NCBI GenBank assembly: GCA_963703575.1 | Contig: CAVPEU010000008.1 | Coordinates: 193,880 to 257,879 of the forward strand | Direction: 5' to 3' | Length of the DNA: 64,000 nucleotides | DNA from: an uncultured Chloroflexia bacterium | GTDB lineage: Bacteria > Chloroflexota > Limnocylindria > Limnocylindrales > CSP1-4 | In this document: piece after piece, positions 1,938 to 32,386 of the stretch | Numbering within the stretch: position 1 is the first letter of the stretch | Layout of the letters: each line of letters begins with the position of its first letter | Notes under the pieces: generated by a model | Database searches by the model: none | What the model saw: the letters and a program-made list of their open reading frames with translations, nothing else | Told to the model about the DNA's origin: nothing | Program-made: the position numbers and the translations under genes

Positions 1938-1941
1938 AGCC

Positions 1942-2538
1942 TCAGGGGATCAGGGCCGCGACCGCGCGGTCCATCTCGTCCCTGGGCAGCGCCCCGATCC
2001 GGATCTCGCGGATCCGGCCGTCGGCGCCGATGAAGAAGTGGGTCGGGATGCCCAGCGTCCGGTACGTGCCGGCGATCGCCGTGTTCTGGTCGACGACGAT
2101 GGGGAACGTCAGGCTGGCCCGCCCCGCGTACCCGGCGACGTCCGATGCGGGCTCGTTGATGAACACGGCCAGCACGACCAGGCCCTGGTCCCTGTACCTC
2201 TGGTAGGTGGCCTCCACGTCGGGCGCCTCGGCCCGGCAGTCCGGGCACCAGGACGCCCCGAACGTCAGCCACATGGGCTTGCCCGCGTAGTCCGCGAGCG
2301 AGACCGTCCTGCCGTCGTAGGTCGTGCCGCTGAAGCCCGGGGGCAGGGCGCCGACCGCCGGGGCGGTGCCTGCCACGTCGCCGGCAAGGTCCACCTTGGT
2401 GAAGCCGCTGGTGTCGGGGCCGCTGACCAGGAAGGCCACGACCCCGATCACGACGGCCGTGACGGCGATCACCACGATCGTCTGCAGCCGCCCAGCCCTG
2501 CGGCCGGAGGGCGGGGCGACGATGCCCGCAGCGCTCAT
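1942..2538 (-). CDS. resA: TlpA/ResA-family thiol-disulfide oxidoreductase (cytochrome c maturation)
   Basis: N-terminal TM anchor and thioredoxin fold with WCPDC active site. Sits directly between ccsA and the cytochrome gene. Confidence 0.8.
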   Translation of the reverse strand: MSAAGIVAPPSGRRAGRLQTIVVIAVTAVVIGVVAFLVSGPDTSGFTKVDLAGDVAGTAPAVGALPPGFSGTTYDGRTVSLADYAGKPMWLTFGASWCPDCRAEAPDVEATYQRYRDQGLVVLAVFINEPASDVAGYAGRASLTFPIVVDQNTAIAGTYRTLGIPTHFFIGADGRIREIRIGALPRDEMDRAVAALIP

Positions 2539-2566
2539 CCGGATCGCTCCCTTCGTCCCCGGGGGG

Positions 2567-3451
2567 TCAACCCAGGCCGGAGTAGCTGTGGAGCCCGCCG
2601 AAGAACAGGTTCCCGAAGTAGGTGAACAGCGTCGCCCCGAACCCGGCCACGAGCAGCCATGAGGCCCCCGACCCGCGCCAGCCGCGGACCACCCGCGCGT
2701 GGAGGTAGGCGCCGTAGATCAGCCACGTCACGAGCGAGGCGGTCTCCTTGGGGTCCCAGCTCCAGTAGCTGCCCCACGCGGTCTCGGCCCAGACCGCGCC
2801 GAGGATGATCGTGAGGGTCAGGAACGGGAACCCGACCACGACCGCGCGATAGCCGATCTCGTCGAGGATCTGCGGCTTGGGCAGGCCCCAGCGGCCACCG
2901 TCGGGCTGGGCCAGGTACAGCAGCGAGGCCGCGAAGGCGATCGAGAAGCTGCCGTAGGCGACGATCGCGACGGCAACGTGGACGGTGAGCAGCAGGTTGT
3001 TCTGCAGGGCGGGGACCAGGGGCTCGATGTCGGCCGGGATGGTCGCCGCGTAGAGCATCATCGCGAGCGCGACGGGCAGCGCCACCAGCGCCAGGAGCCG
3101 CTGGTGGTACGTGCGCTCGAACCACATGTAGGCGGTGAGGATCCCGAACCCGAACGCCATCGAGAACTCGTACATGTTGGCGAACGGGCCGTGGCCGGTG
3201 GCGACGGTGCGGAAGATCATGCTCGCGAGCAGCGCGAACACCGCCAGCCAGCCCAGGATCGTCGCGTAGCGCCCGATCGCGGCCGTGCGCGGGCCGGAGA
3301 TGAAGCCCATCGTGCCGCCGGTGGCCGGCATGCCGGCCGTCTGCAGGCGGGCGGCCCGGAGGCCGGACAGCGCATAGAACAGGTAGGCGATCGTCGCCAG
3401 GCCGGTGCTCAGCATGGCCGCGACGAAGGCGTATTCGGACATCTTTGCCAT
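2567..3451 (-). CDS. ccsA: Cytochrome c biogenesis protein CcsA/ResC (System II haem-handling subunit)
   Basis: Polytopic membrane protein with the tryptophan-rich WGSYWSWDPKE (WWD-like) motif. Confidence 0.85.
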   Translation of the reverse strand: MAKMSEYAFVAAMLSTGLATIAYLFYALSGLRAARLQTAGMPATGGTMGFISGPRTAAIGRYATILGWLAVFALLASMIFRTVATGHGPFANMYEFSMAFGFGILTAYMWFERTYHQRLLALVALPVALAMMLYAATIPADIEPLVPALQNNLLLTVHVAVAIVAYGSFSIAFAASLLYLAQPDGGRWGLPKPQILDEIGYRAVVVGFPFLTLTIILGAVWAETAWGSYWSWDPKETASLVTWLIYGAYLHARVVRGWRGSGASWLLVAGFGATLFTYFGNLFFGGLHSYSGLG

Positions 3452-3465
3452 GTCGTGGTTCTCCC

Positions 3466-5001
3466 TTAGGCCCGCGCGGGCGCCTGGAGCGCCGAGCGGA
3501 TGTCGTTCACGAGGCTCTCGAACTCGGTGCCGAGCGCCGCGTCGCGGCGCCCGAGGCTTGCCACCGCCAGCACCGCCCCACCGTTGGGCCGCGCGGCGAT
3601 CCGCGCCCAGACCCGGCGATGCGGCAGGAAGAAGGTGATGACGAAGCCGGTGAACAGGAGGAATGCGCCCAGCCAGACCAGCACCACGCCGGGATCGCGT
3701 GCGACGTTGAGGCCCGTGAACTTGCTCTCGCGGTCGAACGTGAACGTCAGGCCTGCGGCCGTGGCCGCCGTGCCCTGGTCCAGCACCTGGGTGGCGACCG
3801 GCGTGCTGCCGGTCGATCCGTACAGCTCCACTTGCACCTGGCCGGGCTTGATCTTGGCGTCGCCACTGCCCAGCGTCCCGACGACCCAGGCGACGTAGTC
3901 CGTGCCCGGGATGGCGATCGAGCCGACGGGCCGATCGTCACCGGTCGTGCGCCAGGCCAGCGGCACGCCGTCGGACAGGAGCGTGTTGCCCTTGGCGTCC
4001 TTGACCGTCATCACGGCCGCCGAGCCGAAGAAGGCCTGGTAGAAGCTCGTGTCGCCGTAGCGGAGCGGGTCGTTGACCCGGATCGTGTGGCGCGCGACCT
4101 CGCTGCCGTCCTTGTACAGGACGACCTGGCTCGCGTAGTCCTCGGGGGCGCCGGTGGCCGGGTAGTAGCTGTCCGTGAAGTCGATGAGCTGGAGGCTCAG
4201 CCCCTGCTCGGCCGCGACCGGAAGGGTGCTGCCCTCGGCGATCGTGAAGCTGCTGTCGCGGTAGCCGAAGGTGCTGCCGACGACCGCACCGGCGAGGATC
4301 ACGACCAGCGCGAGGTGGCCGGCCAGCGAAGCGAACGGCGCCCATCGGAAGCGGTCCGCGTACAGGTGGATCGTGCCGTCGTCCAGGCTCGCCGGCCGGT
4401 ACCGGCGACCGCGCAGGACGCCCTGGACGATCTCGAGCGTCTCGGCCGGCGTGTGCCGGACGACGATGGCCTCGTGCTGCGGCGCGTGCTCGAAGAAGGC
4501 CGGCCCGACGTCCACGCGGGGCTTCGTGGCCGTGCGCCACATGCCCGGCACGCGGTGGACGGAGCAGGCGACGAGGCTGATCGTCAGCGCCGCCACCAGC
4601 ACCCGGAAGATCACCGAGTTGAAGATCTGGAACAGCTGGAGCGCGTCGAACAGGCCGCTCACGTTGCTGTACCGCAGGTCGGGCGTCACCGCTCCGATCA
4701 CCGGCAGCGAGTGCAGCCAGCCCACGACCGGGACCGACATCGGCCCGATCTGCTTGAGCCAGCTCGACTTCGCGTCGGGATCGCTCATGACGCCCGGAGC
4801 CGCCTGGATGACCAGGGAGCCGACCAGCCCCAGCACCGCGAGGGCGAGGATGAGGACCATGGCGACCCGCATCGAGGTCAGGAGGTGCCACAGTCCTTCC
4901 AGCGCCCAGTCGACGCGGTCCATCAGGCCGTGGCCGGCCTCCACCGTCGCGGCCTGTGGGACCGTCGGCGGGAGCGGCCGGGTTCGAACTTCGTGGGCCA
5001 T
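3466..5001 (-). CDS. resB: Cytochrome c biogenesis protein ResB/Ccs1
   Basis: About 510 aa with N-terminal TM helices, a large soluble domain and a C-terminal TM segment. Immediately upstream of ccsA, the canonical System II pairing. Confidence 0.8.
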   Translation of the reverse strand: MAHEVRTRPLPPTVPQAATVEAGHGLMDRVDWALEGLWHLLTSMRVAMVLILALAVLGLVGSLVIQAAPGVMSDPDAKSSWLKQIGPMSVPVVGWLHSLPVIGAVTPDLRYSNVSGLFDALQLFQIFNSVIFRVLVAALTISLVACSVHRVPGMWRTATKPRVDVGPAFFEHAPQHEAIVVRHTPAETLEIVQGVLRGRRYRPASLDDGTIHLYADRFRWAPFASLAGHLALVVILAGAVVGSTFGYRDSSFTIAEGSTLPVAAEQGLSLQLIDFTDSYYPATGAPEDYASQVVLYKDGSEVARHTIRVNDPLRYGDTSFYQAFFGSAAVMTVKDAKGNTLLSDGVPLAWRTTGDDRPVGSIAIPGTDYVAWVVGTLGSGDAKIKPGQVQVELYGSTGSTPVATQVLDQGTAATAAGLTFTFDRESKFTGLNVARDPGVVLVWLGAFLLFTGFVITFFLPHRRVWARIAARPNGGAVLAVASLGRRDAALGTEFESLVNDIRSALQAPARA

Positions 5002-5013
5002 TCCGGCGACCTC

Positions 5014-5781
5014 CTACAGGCCGAACGGCGACCCGAGGGTCGCCAGCCGGCCGAGCGTGTTGGTGAGCATCAGCACGCCGACGGTCACGAGCAGCAGGCC
5101 CGTGACCATGGACACGGCATGGTTGTGGCGGCCGACCCAGGACAGCCGTCGGGAGACCCAGGAGGCGCCCAGGGCAACCGCCAGGAACGGGACCGCGAGA
5201 CCGGCCGCGTAGGCGACCAGGAGGACCGTCCCCTGGAGGACGCTCGCGGTCGCGGTGGCCAGCCCGAGGATCCCGCCCAGGATCGGGCCGATGCATGGGC
5301 TCCAGCCCGCCGCGAACAGCGTCCCGAACGCGAGCGAGCGCCCGTAGCCCGGTCTGCCGTTGCCGCCCGCGAGGGTGGCGACCGCGGAGCCCCCGTTGCC
5401 GCCGGCCATCACGAGCCCGCCGGCCATGGTGGGCATCAGGCGGGTGTCGCGCCACAGCGCCCGGACGTTTATCAGGCCCGCGACCTGGAGGCCGAGGAAC
5501 ACGAGGAGCGCGCCGCCGGCCATGTTCATCGTGCGCCGGTCGAGCACCAGGCCGATCGCGCCGACGGCGGCGTAGAAGGCGACGAACACCAGCGAGAAGC
5601 CGAGCACGAACGCGAGCCCGTGGAAGAAGGCGGTGCGGCGGCCGGCGGTGCCCTCGCCGGTCGCGCCGACCATGTAGCTGATGTACGCCGGCACGAGCGG
5701 GAGGCAGCACGGGGACGCGAACGACACCACGCCGCCGGTGAAGGCGATCGCGAGGCCGAGCGCGCTGCCCAGGTCCGTCAT
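5014..5781 (-). CDS. ccdA: Cytochrome c-type biogenesis protein CcdA (DsbD-like membrane thiol-disulfide transporter)
   Basis: Six-TM protein with paired Cys motifs (SPCCLPLVP, WSPCIGP). The real start is the internal MTDLGS methionine; the 5' extension of the reported ORF overlaps the upstream TPR gene in another frame. The start ATG overlaps that gene's stop (ATGA). Confidence 0.8.
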   Translation of the reverse strand: MTDLGSALGLAIAFTGGVVSFASPCCLPLVPAYISYMVGATGEGTAGRRTAFFHGLAFVLGFSLVFVAFYAAVGAIGLVLDRRTMNMAGGALLVFLGLQVAGLINVRALWRDTRLMPTMAGGLVMAGGNGGSAVATLAGGNGRPGYGRSLAFGTLFAAGWSPCIGPILGGILGLATATASVLQGTVLLVAYAAGLAVPFLAVALGASWVSRRLSWVGRHNHAVSMVTGLLLVTVGVLMLTNTLGRLATLGSPFGL

Positions 5782-6566
5782 GGCTGGGTGCTTGCCGCCG
5801 GGGAGGCCACGGGAGAGGGCGCCGGGCTGGCGGCGGGGGACGCGGCCGGCGAGGCTGCGCCCGACGGGGCACCCGACGCGTCCGGCAGCATCGAGGCGGC
5901 GGCCAGCGAGTCGAGGTGCGACTGTACGGTCTTCGCGAGCTGGGATGTCGGGTCGAGCGCGATGACCTTGTTCCACTCGCGCTGGACACCGGCCCAGTCG
6001 GGGGTCTGCTGGTTCAGGTACAGGAAGCCGAGATCGTAGTGCACCTCGACGTTCTTGGGCTCGATGGCGACGACCTGCTGCCAGGTCTTCTCGGCCGACG
6101 TCAGGTCGCCGAGATTGAAGCTCACGGCGCCCCGGGCGAGGAGCGCCTGGATGTTTTTCGGGTCGATCGCGAGCGCCTTGTCCAGCCACTGGCCGGCGAC
6201 GTTGTACTGGGTGCCGGCGTAGTACTCGTCCGCGAGGGCGAGCAGGGTGGCGGTGTCGTTCGGGTTGGCCGCGAGCTTCTCCATCAGGCCCGCGACCTTG
6301 GCCTCGTCGATCGTCGGGGCAGAGGGTGACGCCTGGGCGGCGACGGCGTTCGTCCCCGTCGCACCGCCGCCGCCGAGCGTGAAGGCGGCGAAGGCGATCC
6401 CGAGCACGACCGCGATGGCCGCCCCGCCCAGGACGATCTTCTTCCACGGACCGCCGTCCCGCGCCCGGGAGGCGGGTTCCGGGGCGACGGCTCCGGCGAG
6501 CGGCTTCGCCCGGTGCGCCCGCTCCTTCGCGTCGGACCGCATGTCCCGGTGCGCGCTGGGGGTCAC
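5778..6566 (-). CDS. Membrane-anchored TPR-repeat protein (CcmH/NrfG-like cytochrome maturation accessory)
   Basis: Single TM helix (KKIVLGGAAIAVVLGIAFAAF), TPR-like repeats and a Pro/Ala/Ser-rich C-terminal tail. First gene of the ccs operon. Confidence 0.6.
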   Translation of the reverse strand: MTPSAHRDMRSDAKERAHRAKPLAGAVAPEPASRARDGGPWKKIVLGGAAIAVVLGIAFAAFTLGGGGATGTNAVAAQASPSAPTIDEAKVAGLMEKLAANPNDTATLLALADEYYAGTQYNVAGQWLDKALAIDPKNIQALLARGAVSFNLGDLTSAEKTWQQVVAIEPKNVEVHYDLGFLYLNQQTPDWAGVQREWNKVIALDPTSQLAKTVQSHLDSLAAASMLPDASGAPSGAASPAASPAASPAPSPVASPAASTQP

Positions 6567-6594
6567 GGACGCGTAGAGCGCCTCCAGGTCGTCG

Positions 6595-7062
6595 TCATCG
6601 GGCTCGAGGGCTCGGCTCGGTCTCGGACTCGAGCTTGGTCTCGGGCTCGGCCCCCGTCTCGGGAGCGTCAGCCACGGCCGCGGCCGTGGCTGCGACGAGC
6701 TCGTTCGGGCGCGCAGGTGCCGCTGGAAGGATGTCCCGGCGGGCCGGAGGTGTCGCCGGCCCGCCGGGATCGACCCTCGGCGGCCTCGTCGGGCTCCTGA
6801 GGGCTGAGCCCCCGAGGCCGACTGGGTCGGTCAATTGGAGATACGCCGCATCGAGCGCCGCCGCCTGGGCGTGGGCCCAGCCGCGGATGCTCGAGGGCGC
6901 CGCCGCGAGGTACTCGCTCACGGCTTCGTGGGTGGTGTCGACGTCTTCGGGCGCGGCGCTGGGCGGCAGCCCGAGTCGCGCGAGCAGCTCGTTCTCCGCT
7001 GCGGCGCGGCCGCTGGGGGGCAGGGTGGGCGCGGTCATCCGCGGGATTCCCCGGGGACGCAC
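6595..7062 (-). CDS. Hypothetical low-complexity protein
   Basis: ORF only, Ala/Pro-rich, no recognisable domain. Positioned upstream of the ccs operon on the same strand. Confidence 0.25.
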   Translation of the reverse strand: MRPRGIPRMTAPTLPPSGRAAAENELLARLGLPPSAAPEDVDTTHEAVSEYLAAAPSSIRGWAHAQAAALDAAYLQLTDPVGLGGSALRSPTRPPRVDPGGPATPPARRDILPAAPARPNELVAATAAAVADAPETGAEPETKLESETEPSPRAR

Positions 7063-7292
7063 GCGACGAGGTCGCGCACCGGCTGGCGTTTCATCGTGGA
7101 GCCCTCATTCCGTGCCGCGGGGGACCGCGGCGTGACACCTGAGGGCATTGTCCGGAACGGGCACCCCTGCGCCCATCCGTCGGGACGCACATTTCGGCCG
7201 GGACCGGGCAGGGCTGTTGGGGGGAGAGAATTGAGACCCCCTGTATCGGTCGGTACAGGGGGTGGTCCGGCGGGCCCGCAAGGATCAGGGCG

Positions 7293-8366
7293 TCACGGGG
7301 CGAGGACCGCCGCGCCGTCGTGGCCGACGCCGTGGCAGGTGAGCGTGCAGGTGCCGGTCGTGGCGTCGTAGGCGATCGGCAACCCGTTGTACTGCACCAC
7401 GTCCGGCGCGAACTTCACCAGGCCGCGGGTGTCGCCGCTGGTCCCGTGGAGGTTGGAGTGGCACTCCGCGCACAGGGCGTTCCCCTCGCCGCCACCAGGA
7501 ACGTCGATGTCGGTGCCGCCGCTGCCGTAGGCGCCGATGCTCTGCAGGTGGAAGCCGTGCTTCGGGAAGTTGGTCCCGGTCGAAGTCCCCGTCGTGTCCT
7601 CGATGGCGGCCTGCTGCGCACCCGAGTGGCAGCTGTAGCAGAGGCCGAAGTCGGCGGCGCGGTAGGCCTCCCCGCTGAGTCGCAGTGGGCTCGCCCGGTA
7701 CACGCTGGACAGCAGGTACGGGTTCGACGCACGGTGCGAGGCGTGACATGAGGCGCAGACGTCGCTGGTCAGGCCGCTGACGATGTGCGGTGATGTCGGG
7801 TCCACGTTGGCGGACAGGCCGAGCAGCATCGGCCCTGCCAGGGCCTCGGGTGATGGTGATGCGCCCTGGGCGGCCGGAGCGACGCTCGACGATGGATCCG
7901 GGGATCCCGACGACGGCGCGGAGGACGGCTGGTCCACGATCGCGCCCGGGTCCGGCGAGGGCGACGGATCCACGACCGGCGAGGGCGACGGATCCACGAC
8001 CGGCGACGGCGACGGATCCACGACCGGCGACGGCGACGGATCCACGACCGGCGACGGCGACGGATCCACGACCGGCGACGGCGACGGATCCACGACCGGC
8101 GACGGGGAGTCCGAAGCCGTCGGTTCGGGGGCCGGCGAGGGGGAGTCCGTCGGGCTCGCCACCGGCGACGTCGCCGAGGGATCCGGTGTCGGATCGGTGG
8201 CCGACACAGCCGGCACCGCAGGCGCGAACGTCGCGAGAGCGGCAGCCGCCACCAGCCACACTCCGAAGAGCGGGCCTGCGCGGCGGGTGATCCCTGCGTT
8301 CACGTTCGTGGGACGTCCTCTGGTGTGTGGGTTCGGACGGATCTCCCGGCTGGAGGCGTCCCCCAC
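7293..8366 (-). CDS. Secreted tetrahaem c-type cytochrome with Pro/Ser-rich (VDPSPSP)n linker
   Basis: Signal-peptide-like N-terminus (RRAGPLFGVWLVAAAALATFAPAVPAVSA) and a long PS-rich linker with six perfect VDPSPSP repeats. C-terminal domain has CASCH, CYSCH, CAECH and CTLTCH (CxxxCH). Confidence 0.7.
   Translation of the reverse strand: MGDASSREIRPNPHTRGRPTNVNAGITRRAGPLFGVWLVAAAALATFAPAVPAVSATDPTPDPSATSPVASPTDSPSPAPEPTASDSPSPVVDPSPSPVVDPSPSPVVDPSPSPVVDPSPSPVVDPSPSPVVDPSPSPDPGAIVDQPSSAPSSGSPDPSSSVAPAAQGASPSPEALAGPMLLGLSANVDPTSPHIVSGLTSDVCASCHASHRASNPYLLSSVYRASPLRLSGEAYRAADFGLCYSCHSGAQQAAIEDTTGTSTGTNFPKHGFHLQSIGAYGSGGTDIDVPGGGEGNALCAECHSNLHGTSGDTRGLVKFAPDVVQYNGLPIAYDATTGTCTLTCHGVGHDGAAVLAP
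7955..8101. repeat. Tandem repeat, 21 bp x 7, in-frame within the cytochrome gene
   Basis: Direct reading: ggcga(c/g)ggcgacggatccacgacc repeated head-to-tail; encodes the VDPSPSP linker. Confidence 0.9.
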
Positions 8367-8434
8367 CCGGGGGCTCGCTCCTGGCGGTCCGGAGGTGAAC
8401 CGGGACCGCCAGGAAGCCTGTTCTCAGTGGCTGG

Positions 8435-9833
8435 CTAGTTGCCGGGGGTCGGCAGGGGGCCGAGGTACGTGCCGGACGTCACGGTGCCCGTCGGGTCGTG
8501 GCAGAGCTGGCAGGTCCCACGGTTGTTGACCTTGAGCAGGCGGCTGTCGCTGGACACGACGCCGCTCGGGTCCTTGTACGTACTTGAGTTCGAGCCCGTC
8601 ATCAGCGCGTTCGAGCCGTGCTGGACATGGCACTGCTCGCAGCCGACGCGGGTCGTCCCGTGCTTGATCATGAACGTCGTGTCCGCGGAGTTGGCCGCGA
8701 GCGACGACGCCGTGAGGCTCTGGGTCGGGGCGGTTCCGGTGACCGTGCTGACGCCGTCGTACCGGGTGTGGCACTGGACGCACCACGCGGTCATCAGGCC
8801 GCCCTTGTTGCTCAGGCTGGACTGGGCGACCGGCAGTGGCAGGGCCGCCCCGGAGATCGGGTCGGTCGTCTTGCCGGCCGTCGCCAGGTCAGCGTTGTAC
8901 TGCGCGATCTCGGTGGTGTTGACCGGATACCGGAACGAGTACTGGAGGCCGTTGGCGTTGGTGTAGGTCTGGGTCTTGCTGATCCAGCCCGTGTTCATCG
9001 GGTCAGCGGGCGGGAGCGCGGCGCTGGTGGTCCAGGCCAGCGTGACCCCGGTCGGATCCCACTTGTAGCGCCAGTAGTCGCCATCGTGTTGCCCACGACG
9101 CCGGACGCCAGCCCGTCGGTGCTGGGCCGGATCGTGTAGTTGCGGAGGCCGGTGTACGCGGTGTCCTGGACCTGCACGCCACCGCTGTTGGTGACCTTGT
9201 AGGTCCCCGCCGTCGCCGTCAGGCTCGGAGCGGTCTGGAGGATCCGGTACTGCCCGTTCCCGTGCGGGTTGTGGCAGTTCGCGCACTCGAGGTCGACCGT
9301 CGCGCCGACGCCGCTGTTGACGGCGCCGTTGCCCCAGACCGTGCCGGTCCCGGCATGGGTCGAGGTCACCGGCTGACCCGGTGGGTGCCGGGGAGCGGCT
9401 GGACGTGGCCGATATTCCGGACGTGACCGCCGATCGTGTACGAGAGCCGCGCCGGGTTGGCGGAGTCGATCAGCGCGTAGCTGAAGCCGCCGCCCCGGAG
9501 TGCGCCCAGGACGGCGCCGGTGGCGCTCGCCGGGTCGTACTGCACGCCATGGACGACGTCGGCCGTCGCCTTGGTGCCGTTGTGGCAGTCCAGGCACAGG
9601 TTCGGCAGATCGTTCTTGAGCAGGCCCTCGGCCGTCGCCGTATGCGCTCTGTGGCATCCCGCACACGTGTCGGCGGTCAGCCCTGGGGTCCCGGTTCCGT
9701 TGTTGATGGCCATCTGGTGTGGACCACCGTCAGCGAGCACCGGCAGCGCGGCAACGAACAGCCAGAGGGCGCCGCCTGCAAAGAGGAGGGCGAATTTCCT
9801 CACTGTCATTACCTCAAGACGTGGCATGGATAG
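8435..9833 (-). pseudogene. Hexahaem c-type cytochrome gene broken by two frame changes (pseudogene or sequencing frameshifts)
   Basis: Three overlapping minus-strand ORFs (9366..9893, 8995..9666, 8435..9286) each carry CxxCH sites (CAGCH, CLDCH / CANCHNPH / CVQCH, CEQCH, CQLCH). The first has a signal peptide (MTVRKFALLFAGGALWLFVAALPVLA). Frames switch near 9375 and near 9085. Confidence 0.5.
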
Positions 9834-9894
9834 GATCGCCTGCGCTGCAGGCGTCATCGTTGTCCGCGGCTCCACCTCCCTCACTCCGTGCATG

Positions 9895-10956
9895 TCAGTA
9901 GCTCCAGACCTGGAGCCGGTCGTTGCCCCAGTCGGCGACGTAGACTCGGCCTCGGCCGTCGACGGCGATGCCGTTCGGAAATGCCATGAATCCGTCGTCG
10001 CTGCCCTTCAGGCCGAAGGCGTTGAGATACGTTGGACCCCGGTCGCCGGCGGCCATCGGGGCGTAGGCCTGAATCCGCGAGGCGCTCGAGTCAGCCACCA
10101 GGATGTGCCCGTGATCGTCGATCGCGACCCCCACCGGCAGGCCGAGATTGCCGGCTGCCTCGCCGCGCTCCACGATCCCGACCTTGGTCCCCGAGGCGTC
10201 GTACACCAGCAGCCGGCCGTTGGCCGTGTCGGTGACGTACACGTTCCCGCTGCCGTCCACGACGATCCCGTTGGGGTGGTCGAGGGAGTCACCGGCGCCG
10301 ATGTCGCGGAGCAGCTTGCCGTCGGGCGAGAACTCGTGGATCCGCTGGCTGCCGCCCCCGACGTCCGCGATGTAGACGTCGCCCTGCTGGTCGAACCCGA
10401 TCCCCAGCGGCTGCCAGCCGGCAAGGGCCGCACCCTGGTCGAAGACCCGCACGAAGGTGCCGTCGGCGGCGTAGATGAACACGCCGGAGTCGTAGCGGTC
10501 CGTCGTCCACACCTCGCCGGTGACCGGGTTCACCGCCAGGTACAGCTGGTGGGCCTGGGCGAGCTTCGTCGCAGGCGGCTTGAGCACGCCAAGCGTCGCA
10601 CCCTGCCGGTCCAGCATCAGCGTGTCCAGGGACGAGCCGTTCTGGGTCACGTAGATCCGCGACCCGTCGGAGCTGACGGCCACGCCCTGTGGCTTCGAGA
10701 GGTCGTACAGCGCGTACTGGTAGGTGGGCATGGCCACCGGGCCGATCGGCACCGGCAGCTCGGTGATCGGCTTGCGGAACAGCAGGTACCAGATCGACAG
10801 GGACAGGAAGACCAGCAGCAGCAGGAACAGGAACAGCAGCAACCACTTTCGGCGCCGGGCGTCCTCGCGCTCCTCGGCCGGCGGGGCCGGCTGCCCGGGG
10901 GCGTCCGGCTGGTCCGCGCCCGGACTCGGCTCGCCCGGCAGAGCGCCCAGCGTCAT
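9895..10956 (-). CDS. Membrane-anchored NHL-repeat (six-bladed beta-propeller) protein
   Basis: TM helix (WLLLFLFLLLLVFLSLSIWYLLF) followed by repeated motifs of NHL repeats (GVAVSSDGSRIYV, GDVYIAD, NGIVVDGSGNVYVTD, GVAIDDHGHILVAD, NGIAVDGRGRVYVAD). Start taken at the internal MTLGALPG. Confidence 0.7.
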   Translation of the reverse strand: MTLGALPGEPSPGADQPDAPGQPAPPAEEREDARRRKWLLLFLFLLLLVFLSLSIWYLLFRKPITELPVPIGPVAMPTYQYALYDLSKPQGVAVSSDGSRIYVTQNGSSLDTLMLDRQGATLGVLKPPATKLAQAHQLYLAVNPVTGEVWTTDRYDSGVFIYAADGTFVRVFDQGAALAGWQPLGIGFDQQGDVYIADVGGGSQRIHEFSPDGKLLRDIGAGDSLDHPNGIVVDGSGNVYVTDTANGRLLVYDASGTKVGIVERGEAAGNLGLPVGVAIDDHGHILVADSSASRIQAYAPMAAGDRGPTYLNAFGLKGSDDGFMAFPNGIAVDGRGRVYVADWGNDRLQVWSY

Positions 10957-10972
10957 GTCAGGGGAGTCCACC

Positions 10973-11956
10973 TCAGTTGCTCCCTTCCGCGCTCGGGGAC
11001 GGGACCACCGAGGGCACGGACGAGGCCGCCGCGTCGATGGCGCTGAGGCCGATCTGCGCCGACGCGTTGGCCGGATCGATGGCGAGCACCTGGCGGAAGT
11101 AGCTCGTGGCCGAAGTGTTGTCACCCTGCTGGGCCGCGATGAACCCGAGGCCGAGGAGGGCCTCGGACTTCATGGCGCCGGCGGTCAGCGGCCTGAGTGC
11201 GGCTGCCGCCTCATTCAGCCGCCCCTCGCAGAAGGCGGCCATGCCGGTCGCCCACGTGACGCCGTCCGGTTCGTGGAGGGCCGTATATGCCTCGGCGAGC
11301 TTCTGATACGGATCAGGCCAGCCTGTGGGCACGTAGGCGATGGCCAGGCGGAGCGCCGCGACGGCCTTGGTCGGGTCGCCCACCTTGATCTGCGCCGCGC
11401 CGAGCGAGTACAGCGCGTCGGCGTCGCCGGCGTCGATGGCGAGGGCCTTCTCAAGGCTCGTGACGGCGCCTGCTGCCTTGTCCTGTTGCAGCAGAACGGT
11501 CCCGAGCCAGTAGTACGCCTGCTCCAGCTGCGGGTCCGTGTCCGCGAACTCCCCCTTGCTGGCGGCGTCGATGAACTTCTGGAGGTCCGGGACCGCCAGG
11601 TCGGCCTGTCCGGACTGGACGTAGGCGATCGCTCGCCCGAGCAGCGCGGCCCGATCCCCTGCGTCGATCTTGAGCACCTCGGTGAACTGCGCGATCCCAT
11701 CCTCGAAGCGCTTCGCCGTGACGTAGGCCGCCGCGAGATGGTCGCGAGCCGCGATGTCGTTGGGGTTGGCCTGGACGGCCGCCTCCGCGGCGGTGACCGT
11801 GCGATCAGCGAAGGACGCGCCCGGATCGACGTGGCGGTCGTTCCAGTAGACGAGCACCATGGCCGGGATCCCGACGACGAGCGCGAGCCCGCAGATCAGG
11901 ATCAGCCGGTTCAGTGTTCGGTTCGAGATGGTCGTGGGACGAGCGACTCTCATCAT
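10973..11956 (-). CDS. Membrane-anchored TPR-repeat protein
   Basis: N-terminal TM helix (LILICGLALVVGIPAMVLVYW) followed by several TPR-like helical repeats. Start taken at MMRVARP. Confidence 0.6.
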   Translation of the reverse strand: MMRVARPTTISNRTLNRLILICGLALVVGIPAMVLVYWNDRHVDPGASFADRTVTAAEAAVQANPNDIAARDHLAAAYVTAKRFEDGIAQFTEVLKIDAGDRAALLGRAIAYVQSGQADLAVPDLQKFIDAASKGEFADTDPQLEQAYYWLGTVLLQQDKAAGAVTSLEKALAIDAGDADALYSLGAAQIKVGDPTKAVAALRLAIAYVPTGWPDPYQKLAEAYTALHEPDGVTWATGMAAFCEGRLNEAAAALRPLTAGAMKSEALLGLGFIAAQQGDNTSATSYFRQVLAIDPANASAQIGLSAIDAAASSVPSVVPSPSAEGSN

Positions 11957-12179
11957 GTGCGCTTCCTTGAGGCGGACGCCAGCGGGCGCGAACGCAGGCC
12001 ATCGGCGGACGCTGACGAACCTGAGCCCGGCTCCATGAGCAATCCTCGCCCGCGCAGGCGCGCGTTCCCATCCGTCAGGGGATAGAACTGCGATACAGGG
12101 CGGGGCGAGGACGCACCGGCGAGGCTGTATCGAGTGGCCCACGAAGGTCCCGTGGGACCGGGCCGGATGTCCTGTCGCG

Positions 12180-12704
12180 CTAGCTGCCCAGGCTCTGGCG
12201 AGGCGTCCGGAAGTCGCCGGGGACGTCCAGCTCGATCACGTGGCCCACTTCGCGCAGCGGGAAGCGGTCGAGGGGCCGGGGCGGCGGTCCGGCGAGGACG
12301 GTCCCGTCGAGCGCGAACGAGCCCTCGTGGCAGTAGCACCCGAAGCGGTGGTCGGCGGCCTCCCAACGGTAGGCGCACAGGGCGTGCGTGCAGCGCGGGT
12401 CGAAGGCGGTGACCTCGCCGCTGGCCTTCCTGACCAGCCAGGCCGAAGCATCCACGGAGCTGCCGCCCGACGCGAGCGTGAACTCGACCCTGGTCGGCGC
12501 GCCGACGACGAGCGTCGAGGGATCGAAGTCGACGGTGACGGTGACCGGCGGGGCGCTGCAGGCCTCGAGCAGCACGCCCAGGCCCCCGCCGCCGGCAAGC
12601 GCGCCGGCGCCCATCAGCAGCAGGACGCGGCGTCGCGGCAGCGGCGTCTCGCGGGGGTCAAAGGCCGGTTCGGGACAGTCGGGTCGGTGGTGGGCGTTTG
12701 CCAT
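12180..12704 (-). CDS. Rieske [2Fe-2S] iron-sulfur protein with Tat-type signal
   Basis: Twin-arginine-like N-terminus (PRRRVLLLMGAGALAGG). Rieske cluster boxes CTHALC and CYCHEGSF. No cytochrome b gene adjacent. Confidence 0.75.
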   Translation of the reverse strand: MANAHHRPDCPEPAFDPRETPLPRRRVLLLMGAGALAGGGGLGVLLEACSAPPVTVTVDFDPSTLVVGAPTRVEFTLASGGSSVDASAWLVRKASGEVTAFDPRCTHALCAYRWEAADHRFGCYCHEGSFALDGTVLAGPPPRPLDRFPLREVGHVIELDVPGDFRTPRQSLGS

Positions 12705-12770
12705 CGGGAAGAGCCTGGCAAAGGCGGGGGCTGTGGCCGCGGGGCCTGTGGGCTCCGGTTCGGTCTCCCC

Positions 12771-13205
12771 TCAGCCGGGCAGCACCGCCGGCTGCCGATC
12801 GGGATCGGAGGCGGAACGGTGATCCGCCTCGAGGCCACGATCCGCCTCGGGGCCGGAGCCCCGCGCGCCGCCTGCCACGACAGCCCTGATCTCGGCCAGG
12901 AAATCGTCGGGGCGACTGGACAGGCTCTCGCGTCGGAGCGCCCAGGCCCGGGTGGTGTTGATGTCCACGTCCAGGACCACCGCGCAGCTGGAGCGCCGCA
13001 CGATGTCGGCGGCGTCCACCCGGCCGCCCTCCTCGACGACGATCACCGCCGGCTCGTCGGCCAGCGCCTGGTCCACGGCCGCCTGTTCCGCGATGTCAAC
13101 CGCCTGTACGACGATGCCGCGCTCGGCGGCGAGCATCCGCTCCAGCCCTTCGCCCATCAGGGGATGGCTGTACAGGACGAGAACTCGCACCGGTTCGGGC
13201 GCCAC
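12771..13205 (-). CDS. Hypothetical protein, possibly a degenerate receiver-like domain
   Basis: ORF only. N-terminal VRVLVLYSHPLMGEGLERML resembles a receiver fold without the conserved acidic pocket. Confidence 0.3.
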   Translation of the reverse strand: MAPEPVRVLVLYSHPLMGEGLERMLAAERGIVVQAVDIAEQAAVDQALADEPAVIVVEEGGRVDAADIVRRSSCAVVLDVDINTTRAWALRRESLSSRPDDFLAEIRAVVAGGARGSGPEADRGLEADHRSASDPDRQPAVLPG

Positions 13206-13532
13206 CAGGGCTCCTCGTGGAATCGCGGGTCGCGGGTGCGGCCTGTACCGGCGATGCTAGGCGTGCCCTGCGCCGGCTCCAATCCCTCGCCCGGCACAGC
13301 CGGTTCCGGCGCCGCCTGTATCCGACGGGCTAGCGTTCTGCGCCCGACCCTGTGCCGACCGCGCCCGCGATGACCTGCCCTCGTGAGGACGCCCCGCGCA
13401 TCACCACCTCGGCTGATGCGGCGAGCCTGATCGCAGATGGGGGTGGTCCGCCCCCGCCGGGCGCGCCCGAACGGCGGCAAGGGCGGGGGCGGTGAGGACG
13501 GGGCGGGGTGACCAGGGCGAGCCTCGACCGCC

Positions 13533-14222
13533 TCAGTCGCGGGGGCGCTCCTGGGTCGCGAAGCCCTGGCGGACGGCATAGGCGGCGGCCTGCACCCGGT
13601 TCGTCAGGTGCAGCTTCTCGAGGGCGTTGTGGACGTGGTTCTTGACGGTGCCCTCGGTGATGGTGAGCTGGTTCGCGATCTCCTTGTTGGACATGCCGTC
13701 GGCGACGAGCTGGAGGATCTCCGACTCGCGCCTCGTGAGCACGCTGTCCTGCGCCGGCGCCGGGTGACCGTGCGTCGGGATGCCGCCGGTCCGGAGCGCG
13801 TCGAGCAGCTTGCTGGCGACGGCCGGGGCGATCGGCGCCTCCCCGCGCATCACGCCACGAAGGTCGTCGAACAGCTGCTCGGGCCGGACGTTCTTGAGCA
13901 GGTAGCCGTTTGCGCCGGCCTTGATCGACTCGAACAGGTCGTCATCGTCCTCGGACACCGTGAGCATGACGATCGGCGTCGTGATCCCGGCCTGCCGGAT
14001 CGCGTTGACACCGTCCACGCCCGAGGAGCCGGGCATGTTCACGTCCATCACGACGATGTCGGGGCGCAGGATCCGTACCTTGTCCAGCGCGTCCCGCCCG
14101 TTCTCGCCCTCGCCGATGACCGTCATGTCGAACTGCGCGCTGATCAGGGTCGCGAGGGCCCGCCTGAACAGCGGCTGGTCATCGACCAGCAGAACCCTCA
14201 GCCTGGGTGGAACGTGTGCCAC
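13533..14222 (-). CDS. NarL/FixJ-family response regulator (receiver + LuxR-type HTH)
   Basis: Receiver domain (RVLLVDDQPLFRRAL...DIVVMDVNMPG) and C-terminal LuxR HTH (LTRRESEILQLVADGMSNKEIANQLTITEGTVKNHV). Start approximate (GTG near 14222), overlapping the kinase gene end. Confidence 0.8.
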   Translation of the reverse strand: MAHVPPRLRVLLVDDQPLFRRALATLISAQFDMTVIGEGENGRDALDKVRILRPDIVVMDVNMPGSSGVDGVNAIRQAGITTPIVMLTVSEDDDDLFESIKAGANGYLLKNVRPEQLFDDLRGVMRGEAPIAPAVASKLLDALRTGGIPTHGHPAPAQDSVLTRRESEILQLVADGMSNKEIANQLTITEGTVKNHVHNALEKLHLTNRVQAAAYAVRQGFATQERPRD

Positions 14223-16153: not shown

Positions 16154-17197
16154 TCAGGGGCGCGGCCAGCCCTCGGCGTCGCCCTTCGGGCGCAGCTGCA
16201 CGAACTCGAACCCGAAGCGGCCCTTCACGCACAGGTGGCCGCCGCCAGCCGACGAATCGAGTGGCGAGGTCACCTTGACGATCGAGTTGTCCTGGACGTG
16301 GAGGGAGAGCGTGCAGCCCACGCCGCAGTACGGGCAGATCGTGTCCGTCGTCGTCTGGGCGGCTGGATCCCAGGTGCCGGCGACGCGCATCTCGTGCTCG
16401 GAGCGGAACATCAGTGCGCCGGTCGGGCAGACGCCGATGCAGTTGCCGCAGTAGACGCACGCCGACTCCGGGAGCGGGACGTCGAACTCGCTCGAGATCC
16501 GGGCGTCGAAGCCACGCCCGGCGACCGAGATCGCGAACGTGTTCTGGGCGTCCTCGCCGCATGCCTCGACGCACTTGTAGCAGAGGATGCAGCGCGAGTA
16601 GTCGCGGACGTACAGGTCGTTGTCCACCTTGACCGGCTGGGACACGGTCCGGGCCTCGGCCATCGCGCCCGTGGGCGCATGGTGGTGCCCGGGCTCGCGC
16701 GCGTCGCGCTCGCCCGCCGCCGCAGGTGCCGTCGCGGGACCGAACCGCGAGGCATCCGCCCCGTATCGGGCGGCGTACCGCGCCAGGTCTCCGTCCGGTT
16801 GGGTGGGCCCCGCCAGCGACAGGTCCACGGACGAGCCCAGCAGCTCGAGGACCATCCGGCGCGAATGGCGCACGCGCTCGCTGTCGGTCTGGATCTCCAT
16901 CCCGGGCTCCACGCGCCGCGAGCAGGCGGGGACCAGCACCCGTGACCCGGTGACCTCGACGACGCACACGCGGCACACGTTGACCGGGGTGAGGTTCTCG
17001 AGGTAGCACAGCGTGGGGGTGTCGATGCCGACGGACCGCGCGGCCTCGAGGATCGTGGAGCCGGCCGGGACGGTGACGGCCGCACCGTCGATGGTCAGCT
17101 CCACGTCCGGGACCTCGGGGGCGGGCGGCGGCTCGGGCACGCGTGTGGAGCGGGCCGGGGGCTGGACGAAGATGCGGCCGATGTCGAGCTCGGTCAT
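16154..17197 (-). CDS. Formate dehydrogenase alpha, N-terminal iron-sulfur module only (NuoG-like 2Fe-2S and two 4Fe-4S sites, plus the Mo-domain 4Fe-4S motif), ending prematurely
   Basis: 2Fe-2S motif CYLENLTPVNVCRVCVVEV...C; ferredoxin-type motifs CILCYKCVEAC and CVYCGNCIGVCP; then ICPYCGVGC...CVKGRFGFEFV, the FeS-0 motif of molybdopterin oxidoreductases. The ORF stops about 15 residues later. Start ATG overlaps the fdhB stop (ATGA). Confidence 0.75.
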   Translation of the reverse strand: MTELDIGRIFVQPPARSTRVPEPPPAPEVPDVELTIDGAAVTVPAGSTILEAARSVGIDTPTLCYLENLTPVNVCRVCVVEVTGSRVLVPACSRRVEPGMEIQTDSERVRHSRRMVLELLGSSVDLSLAGPTQPDGDLARYAARYGADASRFGPATAPAAAGERDAREPGHHHAPTGAMAEARTVSQPVKVDNDLYVRDYSRCILCYKCVEACGEDAQNTFAISVAGRGFDARISSEFDVPLPESACVYCGNCIGVCPTGALMFRSEHEMRVAGTWDPAAQTTTDTICPYCGVGCTLSLHVQDNSIVKVTSPLDSSAGGGHLCVKGRFGFEFVQLRPKGDAEGWPRP

Positions 17198-32341: not shown

Positions 32342-32386
32342 GGCGGGAGGATGCCACCGCGGTCACCGGGCCGCTACCCTGCGCGC

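What the first reader, a model, noticed from the sequence alone, without database searches (positions are those of the whole stretch)
7293..8366. Tetrahaem cytochrome tethered by a (VDPSPSP)n linker encoded by a 21-bp x 7 minisatellite
The linker (7955..8101) is a near-perfect in-frame tandem repeat. Such Pro/Ser/Thr linkers typically span the cell wall of Gram-positive bacteria or act as flexible tethers for surface-displayed domains. A haem domain on such a tether suggests a surface-exposed redox protein. The perfect repeat also makes the linker length prone to slipped-strand variation, so extension of the cytochrome could vary within a population.
Basis: seen in the sequence. Interest (0 to 1): 0.55.

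Follow-up and report, generated by a model that had tools for sequence, protein, structure and literature searches.

The report
Secreted four-haem cytochrome with repeat-built stalk
This gene encodes an exported four-haem electron-carrying protein with a floppy, acidic proline/serine stalk, partly made by a recent in-frame DNA repeat. It sits in a gene cluster, conserved in uncultured soil Chloroflexota and Actinomycetota, that looks built to move electrons outward from the cell membrane.

Summary
The repeat is real but was mis-measured. It is 24 bp x 6.4 copies (7952..8105), encoding (VVDPSPSP)x6, not 21 bp x 7. The gene most likely starts at GTG 8303, giving 336 aa: a 35-aa Sec-type signal peptide, a 122-aa acidic Pro/Ser stalk, and a 179-aa haem domain with three CXXCH motifs plus one invariant CX3CH.

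Every full-length orthologue has the same leader and a stalk of 70-131 aa with no sequence conservation. The closest relative (85% identical haem domain) lacks the array, so the array is a recent expansion in this lineage. In-frame tandem repeats recur in 26 of 30 family stalks.

The gene occupies a variable slot in a 12-gene cluster: two-component system, Rieske protein, TPR, NHL, hexahaem, [slot], TPR, CcdA-ResB-CcsA-ResA, and a NapC/NirT-type decahaem. The cluster is syntenic across Limnocylindria-like Chloroflexota and Actinomycetota MAGs.

An outward electron relay in a probably single-membrane cell is plausible. "Tethered" is not shown: the leader has a conserved AXA cleavage site, and there is no lipobox, LPXTG or second membrane helix. 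Copy-number variation within a population could not be tested. This is a new variant of a known kind, of moderate interest.

The parts
8199..8303 (-). Start codon GTG (8301..8303) and a 35-aa signal peptide, VNAGITRRAGPLFGVWLVAAAALATFAPAVPAVSA. It has an n-region with RR, a 16-aa h-region and a c-region ending V-S-A.
   Evidence: It aligns with Met-1 of the full-length homologues. The leader R[AS]GP[LI]FG...AXA|xDPTP is conserved in about 45 family members.
7833..8198 (-). 122-aa Pro/Ser-rich acidic stalk (P37, S30, V15, D13, A12; no K/R; net charge about -15). It begins with the conserved mature N-terminus TDPTPDPSA.
   Evidence: composition; GC3 0.84 in this frame. (every orthologue has a stalk of 70-131 aa, unconserved in sequence).
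7952..8105 (-). Tandem array of 24 bp x 6.4 copies. Six full VVDPSPSP units lie at 7953..8096. Units 1-4 are identical and units 5-6 share one synonymous change.
   Evidence: Absent from the closest relative P0170/L123. Corroborated at its 3' end by L124.
7296..7832 (-). 179-aa haem domain. It is homologous to the C-terminal four-haem module of octahaem cytochromes of Chloroflexota and Actinomycetota.
   Evidence: AF2 model pLDDT 72.
7743..7757 (-). Haem motif 1, CASCH. His+3 (H211 of the 357-aa ORF) is nearly invariant and is a candidate distal ligand.
7626..7640 (-). Haem motif 2, CYSCH.
7458..7472 (-). Haem motif 3, CAECH (family signature GNALCAECH), followed by an invariant His.
7332..7349 (-). 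Haem motif 4, non-canonical CX3CH (CTLTCH). Its two Cys and His are invariant or nearly so across 119 homologues.
   Evidence: CXXXCH was shown by mass spectrometry to carry haem c in MmcA (PMC11024163).
7293..7295 (-). Stop codon.
7236..7263 (-). 10-bp GC-rich hairpin downstream of the stop, followed by UCUCAAUUCUCU. It is a possible weak terminator.
   Evidence: whole-segment z = -0.57, not significant. Not flagged by the consensus scan.
8372..8418 (-). Strong stem-loop (about 14 bp) in the 131-nt spacer between the hexahaem gene and this gene.
   Evidence: MFE -62.3 kcal/mol, z = -3.0.
8435..9893 (-). Upstream hexahaem cytochrome, with its own signal peptide and no stalk. Here it is split over three frames by two frameshifts, near 9380-9395 and 9086-9112.
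   Evidence: Intact 476- and 475-aa orthologues exist in L001 and L123.
9895..11124 (-). Membrane-anchored NHL-repeat beta-propeller protein.
   Evidence: NHL, E = 2e-32. Synteny.
10973..12142 (-). Membrane-anchored TPR protein (TPR1).
12180..12704 (-). Small Rieske [2Fe-2S] protein with a twin-arginine-type leader.
13533..15999 (-). Two-component system: a GAF/HisKA_3 histidine kinase (14179..15999) and a LuxR-type response regulator (13533..14387).
5778..6566 (-). TPR protein (TPR2) with weak similarity to the CcmH/CycH TPR domain (below Pfam cutoff). It has a membrane anchor and a C-terminal Pro/Ala/Ser tail.
1942..5790 (-). System II cytochrome c maturation genes: CcdA (about 5014..5790), ResB/CcsB (3466..5001), CcsA (2567..3451) and a ResA/TlpA-like thioredoxin (1942..2538).
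219..1937 (-). Membrane-anchored decahaem cytochrome with a NapC/NirT N-terminal module. It is the putative quinol dehydrogenase.
   Evidence: 10 CXXCH; N-terminal TM helix.

Best explanation
**What it is.** The gene encodes a Sec-exported four-haem c-type cytochrome of a Limnocylindria-type Chloroflexota bacterium, probably a single-membraned one. The mature protein is a 122-residue disordered, acidic Pro/Ser stalk followed by a compact 179-residue bis-His-type tetrahaem module.

**Proposed role.** It is the distal, variable member of a conserved three-cytochrome relay. That relay runs from a membrane NapC/NirT-type decahaem (quinol side), to a hexahaem, to this protein. The relay is matured by its own System II (CcdA-ResB-CcsA-ResA) genes, accompanied by NHL and TPR scaffold proteins and a Rieske protein, and controlled by a two-component system. 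The most likely job is moving electrons between the membrane and an acceptor or donor in or beyond the cell wall.

**The stalk.** It is selected for composition and approximate length (about 70-130 residues), not for sequence, and it turns over by in-frame repeat expansion and deletion. The (VVDPSPSP)x6 array is the newest such expansion in this lineage. Each unit adds up to about 2.5 nm of contour length.

**Shown:** the repeat, the reading frame, the haem motifs, the signal peptide, the family architecture, the synteny, and the recurrence of repeats.

**Inferred:** export, haem occupancy, direction of electron flow, location in the wall, and the role of the stalk.

**Anchoring.** The signal peptide is probably cleaved. 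Any retention would then be non-covalent or through glycan or wall interactions of the stalk, not a membrane tether.
For: **Repeat and frame:**

**Start and signal peptide:** they align with Met-1 of the homologues, and the leader with its AXA site is conserved in about 45 proteins.

**Haems:**
- Four haem motifs, plus further conserved non-motif His residues, are invariant or nearly invariant in 119 sequences.
- PF09699 scores above its cutoff.
- CXXXCH binds haem in MmcA.

**Stalk:**
- Present in all full-length orthologues, 70-131 aa, acidic, unconserved.
- The closest relative, P0170 (85% identical), has the single motif SVDPSPSIHPSPSPVPSAIVDQPS where the window has the array.
- 26 of 30 family stalks carry TRF>=50 repeats, and every period is a multiple of 3. 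Near-perfect arrays occur in L042 and L078.
- The close relatives L014 and L015 differ in the length of a (TP)n tail.

**Cluster:**
- Searches identify its genes.
- Most or all of the gene order is kept in most of the 60 loci checked, including Actinomycetota MAGs.
- NHL and TPR proteins accompany EET cytochromes in Gram-positive Dethiobacter.
- P/T-rich amino-acid tandem repeats in extracellular multihaem cytochromes (MHCs) have a precedent in Borg elements.
Against: - Nothing shows localisation, haem loading or redox partners.
- No anchor motif was found, so 'tether' is unsupported.
- No terminal reductase or oxidase is encoded in the cluster, so the physiological donor or acceptor is unknown.
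- The assembly has two frameshifts in the adjacent gene, so the exact repeat count could be off.
- Within five clusters of >=90% identical orthologues the stalk length does not vary.
Confidence: 0.6

Rival explanations
1. Membrane-tethered surface cytochrome. The N-terminal hydrophobic segment is not cleaved and acts as a signal anchor. The stalk then spans the wall and holds the haem domain at the outer face, and repeat number sets the reach.
For: - The uncharged stretch PLFGVWLVAAAALATFAPAVPAV is 23 residues, long enough to span a membrane.
- The stalk always sits directly after the leader, in tetrahaem, beta-domain and octahaem relatives alike.
- Stalk length is limited to about 70-131 aa. 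As an extended chain that is of the order of a cell-wall thickness (inference).
Against: - The tripartite leader has helix-breaking Pro at -6 and -9, and a conserved small-X-small site at -3/-1 (VSA, VTA, ARA, VGA, AGA) in about 45 homologues. This is the type I signal peptidase pattern.
- No signal-peptide predictor was available to run.
Confidence: 0.22
2. Ordinary soluble electron carrier of the space between membrane and wall. It shuttles between the hexahaem or decahaem and some soluble-substrate enzyme. The stalk is a neutral low-complexity appendage typical of high-GC secreted proteins, and the repeat is selectively irrelevant slippage.
For: - Small tetrahaem cytochromes commonly act as soluble shuttles (general knowledge).
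- The stalk sequence is unconstrained.
- The genome carries many other short tandem repeats, some intergenic.
- No anchor was found.
Against: - The stalk is retained in every full-length orthologue and in most octahaem relatives. Its composition is constant (PST 0.5-0.68, 5-17 acidic versus 0-2 basic residues) and its length is bounded.
- The first residues after the cleavage site (DPTPDPS) are conserved.
- These features indicate selection on the stalk.
Confidence: 0.13
3. Annotation or assembly artefact. The real product is the 178-aa protein from Met-180, as in the public gene call (P0001), the Pro/Ser region is untranslated, and the repeat count is a long-read assembly error.
For: - The public call starts at Met-180.
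- The neighbouring gene has two frameshifts.
- Sister MAGs show similar breaks (L003).
Against: - A c-type cytochrome without a signal peptide could not receive haem.
- The upstream frame is open with GC3 0.84, and the only differences between units are synonymous.
- The leader and stalk are found in frame in dozens of independent assemblies, including short-read ones.
- L124 independently reaches the last repeat unit, and its break point implies a second unit upstream.
Confidence: 0.05

Closest known systems
Cell-wall and surface multihaem cytochromes of Gram-positive metal reducers (Thermincola potens/ferriacetica OcwA, TherJR_1122 and others; Carboxydothermus ferrireducens) - PMC6703420, PMC7911101, PMC7829351
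   Same: Both are Sec-exported multihaem c-type cytochromes in single-membraned bacteria. Both are proposed to relay electrons from a membrane quinol-oxidising cytochrome through the wall.
   Different: - No detectable sequence or fold relationship.
- Four haems rather than 9-11.
- A long N-terminal Pro/Ser stalk; I know of none reported for those proteins (from memory, not checked).
- Different phylum, and no experimental data.
Pro/Thr-rich amino-acid tandem repeats in extracellular multihaem cytochromes of Borg elements of Methanoperedens (PMC9879509)
   Same: - Perfect or near-perfect in-frame DNA tandem repeats create Pro-rich disordered regions in extracellular multihaem cytochromes.
- Unit variants differ by synonymous SNPs.
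- The repeats arise independently in related proteins.
   Different: - Bacterial chromosome rather than an archaeal extrachromosomal element.
- Ser/Asp/Val-rich rather than Thr-rich.
- Here the disordered stalk is ancestral to the family, and the repeat only renews part of it.
- Copy-number polymorphism was shown in Borgs but not here.
NHL/TPR-containing EET gene clusters of Gram-positive Dethiobacter alkaliphilus (PMC10376724)
   Same: Several multihaem cytochromes, including a CymA/NapC-like quinol oxidiser, co-cluster with NHL-repeat proteins, TPR proteins and regulators.
   Different: Here the gene order is fixed and includes a complete System II maturation operon and a Rieske protein. The cytochromes are not close homologues.
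OmcE tetrahaem nanowire subunit of Geobacter sulfurreducens (PDB 7TFS)
   Same: It is a small secreted tetrahaem unit, and it is the only solved cytochrome to appear in a sequence search of the family.
   Different: - The match is marginal (E = 0.034), involves an octahaem relative rather than the target, and covers only haem-motif stretches.
- No structural match.
- No evidence of polymerisation.
Pro/Thr/Ser linkers of secreted actinobacterial proteins, e.g. cellulase PT linkers and O-mannosylated M. tuberculosis Apa with mature N-terminus DPEPAPP... (own knowledge, not tested)
   Same: Acidic Pro-rich low-complexity segments directly after the signal-peptide cleavage site in high-GC single-membraned bacteria. 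These are often O-glycosylated and associated with the envelope.
   Different: - Attached to a cytochrome rather than a hydrolase or adhesin.
- Glycosylation was not tested.
- The Pfam PT-repeat model does not reach threshold.

Membership tests
Multihaem c-type cytochrome (doubled-CXXCH domain, Pfam PF09699 / TIGR01905) | Multiple CXXCH haem-attachment motifs | tested here: met
   Three CXXCH plus one CX3CH. The Cys and His positions are invariant or nearly so in 119 homologues.
Multihaem c-type cytochrome (doubled-CXXCH domain, Pfam PF09699 / TIGR01905) | Profile score above the curated cutoff | tested here: inconclusive
   PF09699 scores 30.3 against a cutoff of 20.6, which is met. TIGR01905 scores 20.6 against a cutoff of 25.2, which is not met.
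Multihaem c-type cytochrome (doubled-CXXCH domain, Pfam PF09699 / TIGR01905) | Export signal and an available maturation system | tested here: met
   Tripartite leader, read by eye and conserved in about 45 homologues. No predictor was run. CcdA, ResB, CcsA and ResA are adjacent.
Multihaem c-type cytochrome (doubled-CXXCH domain, Pfam PF09699 / TIGR01905) | Covalently bound haem at each motif | not testable with these tools
   Needs haem staining or mass spectrometry. A CXXXCH precedent exists in MmcA.
MtrC/OmcA outer-surface decahaem family (TIGR03507; PF22113 domains II/IV) | Profile score above cutoff; ten haems in a staggered cross | tested here: not met
   TIGR03507 scores 16.9 against 209.3. 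PF22113 scores 24.8 against 30. Only four haem motifs are present.
OmcE/OmcS-type cytochrome filaments | Sequence or fold similarity to a filament subunit | tested here: not met
OmcE/OmcS-type cytochrome filaments | Inter-subunit His-haem coordination and polymerisation | not testable with these tools
   There are more conserved non-motif His (H36, H95, H98, H132, H174 of the domain) than the four haems need. This is only suggestive.
Sortase-anchored wall-spanning surface proteins of Gram-positives | C-terminal LPXTG-type motif, hydrophobic segment and basic tail | tested here: not met
   The C-terminus is ...CHGVGHDGAAVLAP*. There is no LPXTG and no C-terminal hydrophobic segment.
Lipoprotein with disordered tether | Lipobox with an invariant Cys at the end of the signal peptide | tested here: not met
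   All eight Cys lie in haem motifs (positions 204-344 of the ORF); none is in the leader.
Tat-exported protein | S/T-R-R-x-F-L-K twin-arginine motif | tested here: not met
   The leader reads T-R-R-A-G-P-L-F. RR is present but the rest does not fit. c-type cytochromes are exported unfolded by Sec (established knowledge).
Variable-number tandem repeat (VNTR) / contingency locus | Near-identical head-to-tail units | tested here: met
   24 bp x 6.4 copies, 99% matches.
Variable-number tandem repeat (VNTR) / contingency locus | Copy number differs between strains or reads | tested here: inconclusive
   No second complete allele was found. L124 breaks inside the array. The closest species lacks the array. 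Raw reads are needed.
Variable-number tandem repeat (VNTR) / contingency locus | Unit length not divisible by 3, giving on/off phase switching | tested here: not met
   The unit is 24 bp, or 8 codons. Only length can vary, not frame. All 26 family repeats have periods divisible by 3.
Amino-acid tandem-repeat disordered regions in extracellular multihaem cytochromes (as in Borgs, PMC9879509) | In-frame perfect repeat, Pro-rich, outside functional domains of a secreted multihaem cytochrome | tested here: met
   Description of the class.

The most novel reading that the evidence does not exclude
The conserved leader (RRAGPLFG...AXA|xDPTPDPS) plus the ~100-aa acidic Pro/Ser/Thr stalk may be a dedicated wall-crossing or wall-docking device for the terminal cytochrome. 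It would belong to a previously undescribed 12-gene electron-conduit cluster shared by soil Limnocylindria-type Chloroflexota and Actinomycetota. One slot in that cluster is exchangeable between tetrahaem, beta-domain-tetrahaem and octahaem proteins. Stalk length would be tuned by in-frame repeat gain and loss, setting how far the haems reach through the envelope. On this reading the cluster is a single-membrane-cell counterpart of the porin-cytochrome conduits of Gram-negative bacteria.
Probability: 0.2. Interest if true: 0.7.

Novelty: new variant of a known kind. Interest (0 to 1): 0.45.

Why it matters
How single-membraned soil bacteria pass electrons through a thick wall is known only from a few thermophilic Firmicutes. 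This gene marks a strongly syntenic cytochrome cluster in two abundant, mostly uncultured soil phyla. Its distal cytochrome always carries a disordered stalk, and that stalk evolves by repeat turnover under a length limit.

If the stalk positions the haems in or beyond the wall, it gives a simple, testable structural rule for such electron transfer. The array would also be a natural marker for strain-level variation.

There is a practical point too. Public gene calls truncate these proteins at an internal Met, which hides their signal peptides and stalks from secretome and EET surveys.

Tried and rejected
- **First AF2 run.** With 21 sequences it gave pLDDT 46 and was unusable. The 119-sequence run gave pLDDT 72.
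- **PDB profile search with A1.** It hit only low-complexity circumsporozoite repeats, because stalk columns entered the profile. The same caveat applies to the count of 468 representatives, although the top hits cover the haem module.
- **Exact look-ups.** The window protein (P0001 and the 336-aa form) is not on record.
- **JGI metagenome scan.** It found nothing above 64% identity.
- **Cluster-mate P0258/L124.** It is the same species but breaks inside the array, so it gives no copy count.
- **Readings considered and rejected:**
  - Tat export: the motif does not fit.
  - Lipoprotein or sortase anchoring: the motifs are absent.
  - Frameshift-type phase variation: the unit is divisible by 3.
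  - Start at Met-180.
  - The plus-strand ORF 7783..8529 (GDGDGSTT repeats) as a real gene: it is a shadow of the stalk frame.
- **Other searches.** The consensus promoter and terminator scan found nothing relevant. Literature searches found no description of this family or cluster.
Full report
**Observation**

The minus-strand ORF 7293..8366 exists. TRF reports a 24-bp unit, 6.4 copies and 99% matches at 7952..8105, with score 294. In the gene frame this is six VVDPSPSP units at 7953..8096. Units 1-4 are identical in DNA. Units 5 and 6 share one synonymous G>C change.

The array is far beyond chance. Thirty Markov-simulated windows of the same composition reach TRF scores of only 53-90. In 1000 codon shuffles of the stalk, no shuffle produced two tandem identical 24-mers.

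An independent short-read assembly of the same species supports the array. Contig L124 (Logan ERR12036780) differs at 2 of about 690 bases and begins 29 nt inside the last unit. A k-mer graph would break there if at least two identical units precede the unique flank. It gives no copy count.

**Gene model**

The maximal ORF is 357 aa. The GTG at 8303 aligns with Met-1 of all full-length homologues (MNAGI[KR]RRAGPLFG...) and has AGAGGA 12 nt upstream.

The product is 336 aa, in three parts:
- **Signal peptide, 35 aa.** The n-region contains RR, the h-region is LFGVWLVAAAALATF, and the c-region APAVPAVSA ends in V-S-A.
- **Stalk, 122 aa.** Composition is P37, S30, V15, D13 and A12, with no Lys or Arg, giving a net charge of about -15. 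GC3 is 0.84 in this frame.
- **Haem domain, 179 aa.** It carries CASCH, CYSCH, CAECH and CTLTCH.

In a 119-sequence alignment, the Cys and His positions of all four motifs are invariant or nearly so. The same holds for five further His residues: domain positions 36, 95, 98, 132 and 174. That fits four bis-His haems. A CXXXCH motif was shown by mass spectrometry to carry haem c in MmcA (PMC11024163).

The public gene call for this protein (P0001, 100% identical) starts at Met-180. It therefore lacks both the signal peptide and the stalk. That call is almost certainly wrong.

**Family**

The target's haem domain reaches the Pfam doubled-CXXCH model (PF09699, 30.3 bits against a cutoff of 20.6). 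It stays below threshold for the MtrC/OmcA, DmsE and other named families.

A profile search of 1.84 billion representatives found 468 proteins at E <= 0.001, most of them 450-1300 aa. One caveat applies: the profile included stalk columns.

I inspected ORFs at 121 loci drawn from genomes, metagenomes and read assemblies. Most relatives are octahaems (seven CXXCH plus the same terminal CX3CH), and the target corresponds to their last four haems. Architectures seen:
- leader-stalk-tetrahaem (this gene and about 20 others);
- leader-stalk-beta-rich domain of about 250 aa-tetrahaem;
- leader-stalk-beta domain-octahaem;
- in some Actinomycetota, an octahaem without a stalk.

**Host**

The related loci come from MAGs labelled "uncultured Chloroflexia" (MFD bins) or Candidatus Limnocylindrales/Limnocylindria. 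More distant ones come from Actinomycetota. The best species-representative match is 80% identical (L005). The window is 73.5% G+C. Chloroflexota are generally regarded as single-membraned (my own knowledge).

**The stalk is ancestral; the repeat is new**

All full-length tetrahaem orthologues have a stalk of 70-131 aa (median about 110). In every one the PST fraction is 0.5-0.68, with 5-17 acidic and 0-2 basic residues, and no sequence conservation beyond the first residues (xDPTPDPS). The window's stalk, at 122 aa, is within this range even though 48 of its residues come from the array.

The closest relative (P0170/L123, 85% identical haem domain) reads ...SVDPSPSIHPSPSPVPSAIVDQPS... The window instead has (VVDPSPSP)6-DPGAIVDQPS. 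The array is therefore a recent expansion of a pre-existing motif in this lineage.

This is a family habit:
- 26 of 30 non-redundant leader-bearing relatives have TRF>=50 repeats in the stalk region.
- Every period is a multiple of three.
- Near-perfect arrays occur in L042 (48 bp x 5.5, 99%) and L078 (24 bp x 7.1, 97%).
- Others are visible by eye: (VEPSPS)n in L016, (PVADAS)n in L013, (SPSPSPSD)5 in the C-terminal tail of P0024, and (TP)n tails of different length in the close pair L014/L015.

Conversely, in five clusters of >=90% identical orthologues with non-repetitive stalks, all full-length members have the same length.

Taken together, the stalk is under selection for composition and approximate length, and it turns over by repeat gain and loss. 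Whether copy number varies within this population today could not be tested.

**Tether or not**

The stalk's N-terminal end joins only the leader. Across about 45 relatives the leader ends in a small-X-small site at -3/-1 (VSA, VTA, ARA, VGA, AGA, ASA), preceded by prolines and followed by the conserved xDPTP. This is the pattern cut by type I signal peptidase.

No other anchor is present. All eight Cys are in haem motifs, so there is no lipobox. There is no LPXTG or C-terminal hydrophobic segment, and no second membrane helix. The RR does not fit a Tat motif.

I therefore rate cleavage as more likely than a signal anchor, at roughly 3:1, although no predictor could be run. If the leader is cleaved, the stalk is a free N-terminal extension. 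Any retention in the wall would come from the stalk itself (glycosylation or charge) or from partner proteins.

**Context**

The gene lies in a cluster read entirely on the minus strand. In transcription order:

| Gene | Coordinates |
|---|---|
| GAF histidine kinase | 14179..15999 |
| LuxR-type response regulator | 13533..14387 |
| Small Rieske protein | 12180..12704 |
| Membrane-anchored TPR protein (TPR1) | 10973..12142 |
| Membrane-anchored NHL propeller | 9895..11124 |
| Hexahaem cytochrome | 8435..9893 |
| This gene | 7293..8303 |
| Second TPR protein (TPR2) | 5778..6566 |
| CcdA | about 5014..5790 |
| ResB | 3466..5001 |
| CcsA | 2567..3451 |
| ResA-like thioredoxin | 1942..2538 |
| Membrane-anchored NapC/NirT-type decahaem | 219..1937 |

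Most or all of this order is found in most of the 60 loci checked, including Actinomycetota MAGs. The family member in the slot between the hexahaem and TPR2 varies in architecture.

NHL and TPR proteins accompany EET cytochromes in the Gram-positive Dethiobacter (PMC10376724). I found no paper describing this cluster or family.

A strong hairpin (z = -3.0) separates the hexahaem gene from this gene, and a weaker one follows the stop codon.

**Mechanism proposed**

Quinol would be oxidised by the membrane decahaem. Electrons would pass to the hexahaem, which has a signal peptide and no stalk, and then to this tetrahaem protein. Its stalk would keep it in, or extended through, the wall matrix, and the NHL and TPR proteins would act as scaffolds. 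The direction of flow and the external partner are unknown, and no terminal enzyme is encoded in the cluster.

Each repeat unit adds up to about 2.5 nm of contour length. The whole stalk could reach about 38 nm if fully extended. Both figures are inferred from residue counts.

**Comparison and novelty**

The nearest functional analogues are the wall-associated cytochromes of Thermincola and Carboxydothermus. No homology to them was detected, and no stalk has been reported for them as far as I know.

The nearest precedent for the repeat is the set of Pro/Thr-rich amino-acid tandem repeats in extracellular cytochromes of Borg elements (PMC9879509).

The finding is therefore a new variant of known kinds. 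It is not a member of any named cytochrome family beyond the generic doubled-CXXCH domain. What seems new is the conserved leader-stalk module and the 12-gene cluster with its exchangeable slot.

**Caveats**

The assembly carries two frameshifts in the adjacent hexahaem gene relative to the intact orthologues in L001 and L123. Sister MAGs show similar breaks. The contig naming suggests long-read assemblies. The exact unit count should therefore be checked against reads.

Noticed in passing
window 8435..9893 (-): The upstream hexahaem cytochrome gene is split across three reading frames by two frameshifts, near 9380-9395 (in a run of C/G homopolymers) and near 9086-9112. Orthologues in L001 (476 aa) and L123 (475 aa) are intact. 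This is probably assembly error, but a real pseudogene is not excluded.
   Followed up: partly
window 219..15999 (-); loci L001-L060: The 12-gene cluster is HK, RR, Rieske, TPR, NHL, hexahaem, variable slot, TPR, CcdA, ResB, CcsA, ResA, NapC/NirT-type decahaem. Most or all of this order is kept in most of the 60 loci checked, in both Chloroflexota (Limnocylindria) and Actinomycetota MAGs. The slot holds tetrahaem, beta-domain-tetrahaem or octahaem relatives. No description was found in the paper library.
   Followed up: partly
window 8199..8303 (-) and about 45 homologues in the loci: The leader motif R[AS]GP[LI]FG, a hydrophobic stretch, AXA, then xDPTP[DA]PS is unusually conserved. Within the loci it is found only on cytochromes of this family. 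The conservation on both sides of the predicted cleavage site is unexplained. It could be a targeting signal, a processing signal or a glycosylation start.
   Followed up: partly
window 7296..7829 (public call P0001); window 7783..8529 (+); L001 9648..9950 (-): Public gene calls start these cytochromes at an internal Met, losing the signal peptide and stalk. In places they also call spurious opposite-strand ORFs over the GC-rich stalk. Secretome or EET surveys based on such calls would miss these proteins.
   Followed up: yes
L009-L016, L020, L021 (e.g. L009 residues about 210-440 of the ORF): Many relatives carry an extra beta-rich domain of about 250 aa (THTWVD...RFxVYRVRFQVxNxGD...) between the stalk and the haems. 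It has no Pfam match.
   Followed up: partly
window 53802..54373: Two further minisatellites lie just upstream of the transketolase start: 27 bp x 9.9 copies (97%, score 469, the strongest in the window) and 24 bp x 4.3 copies. In frame they read GRRVRGGAR repeats and so look non-coding.
   Followed up: partly
window 32283..32334 (-), ORF 30656..32362: A perfect 9-bp x 5.8 repeat encodes (AEH)n, read as MTDAEHAEHAEHAEHAEHAD, at the N-terminus of a 568-aa ORF.
   Followed up: no
window 8372..8418 (-): A strong stem-loop of about 14 bp (MFE -62.3 kcal/mol for the 131-nt spacer, z = -3.0) lies between the hexahaem stop and the start of this gene. It may be an attenuator or an mRNA-stability element.
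   Followed up: partly
window 17208..17305 (-), ORF 17194..19227: An 18-bp x 5.4 repeat lies at the 3' end of a fused NuoE/NuoF-like gene (2Fe-2S thioredoxin-like domain, 51K FMN-binding domain and NADH 4Fe-4S domain).
   Followed up: no
window 5778..6566 (-) and 10973..12142 (-): Both TPR proteins of the cluster also end in short Pro/Ala/Ser-rich tails (...ASPAASPAASPAPSPVASPAASTQP and ...SSVPSVVPSPSAEGSN). Low-complexity extracytoplasmic tails are therefore a theme of the whole cluster.
   Followed up: no
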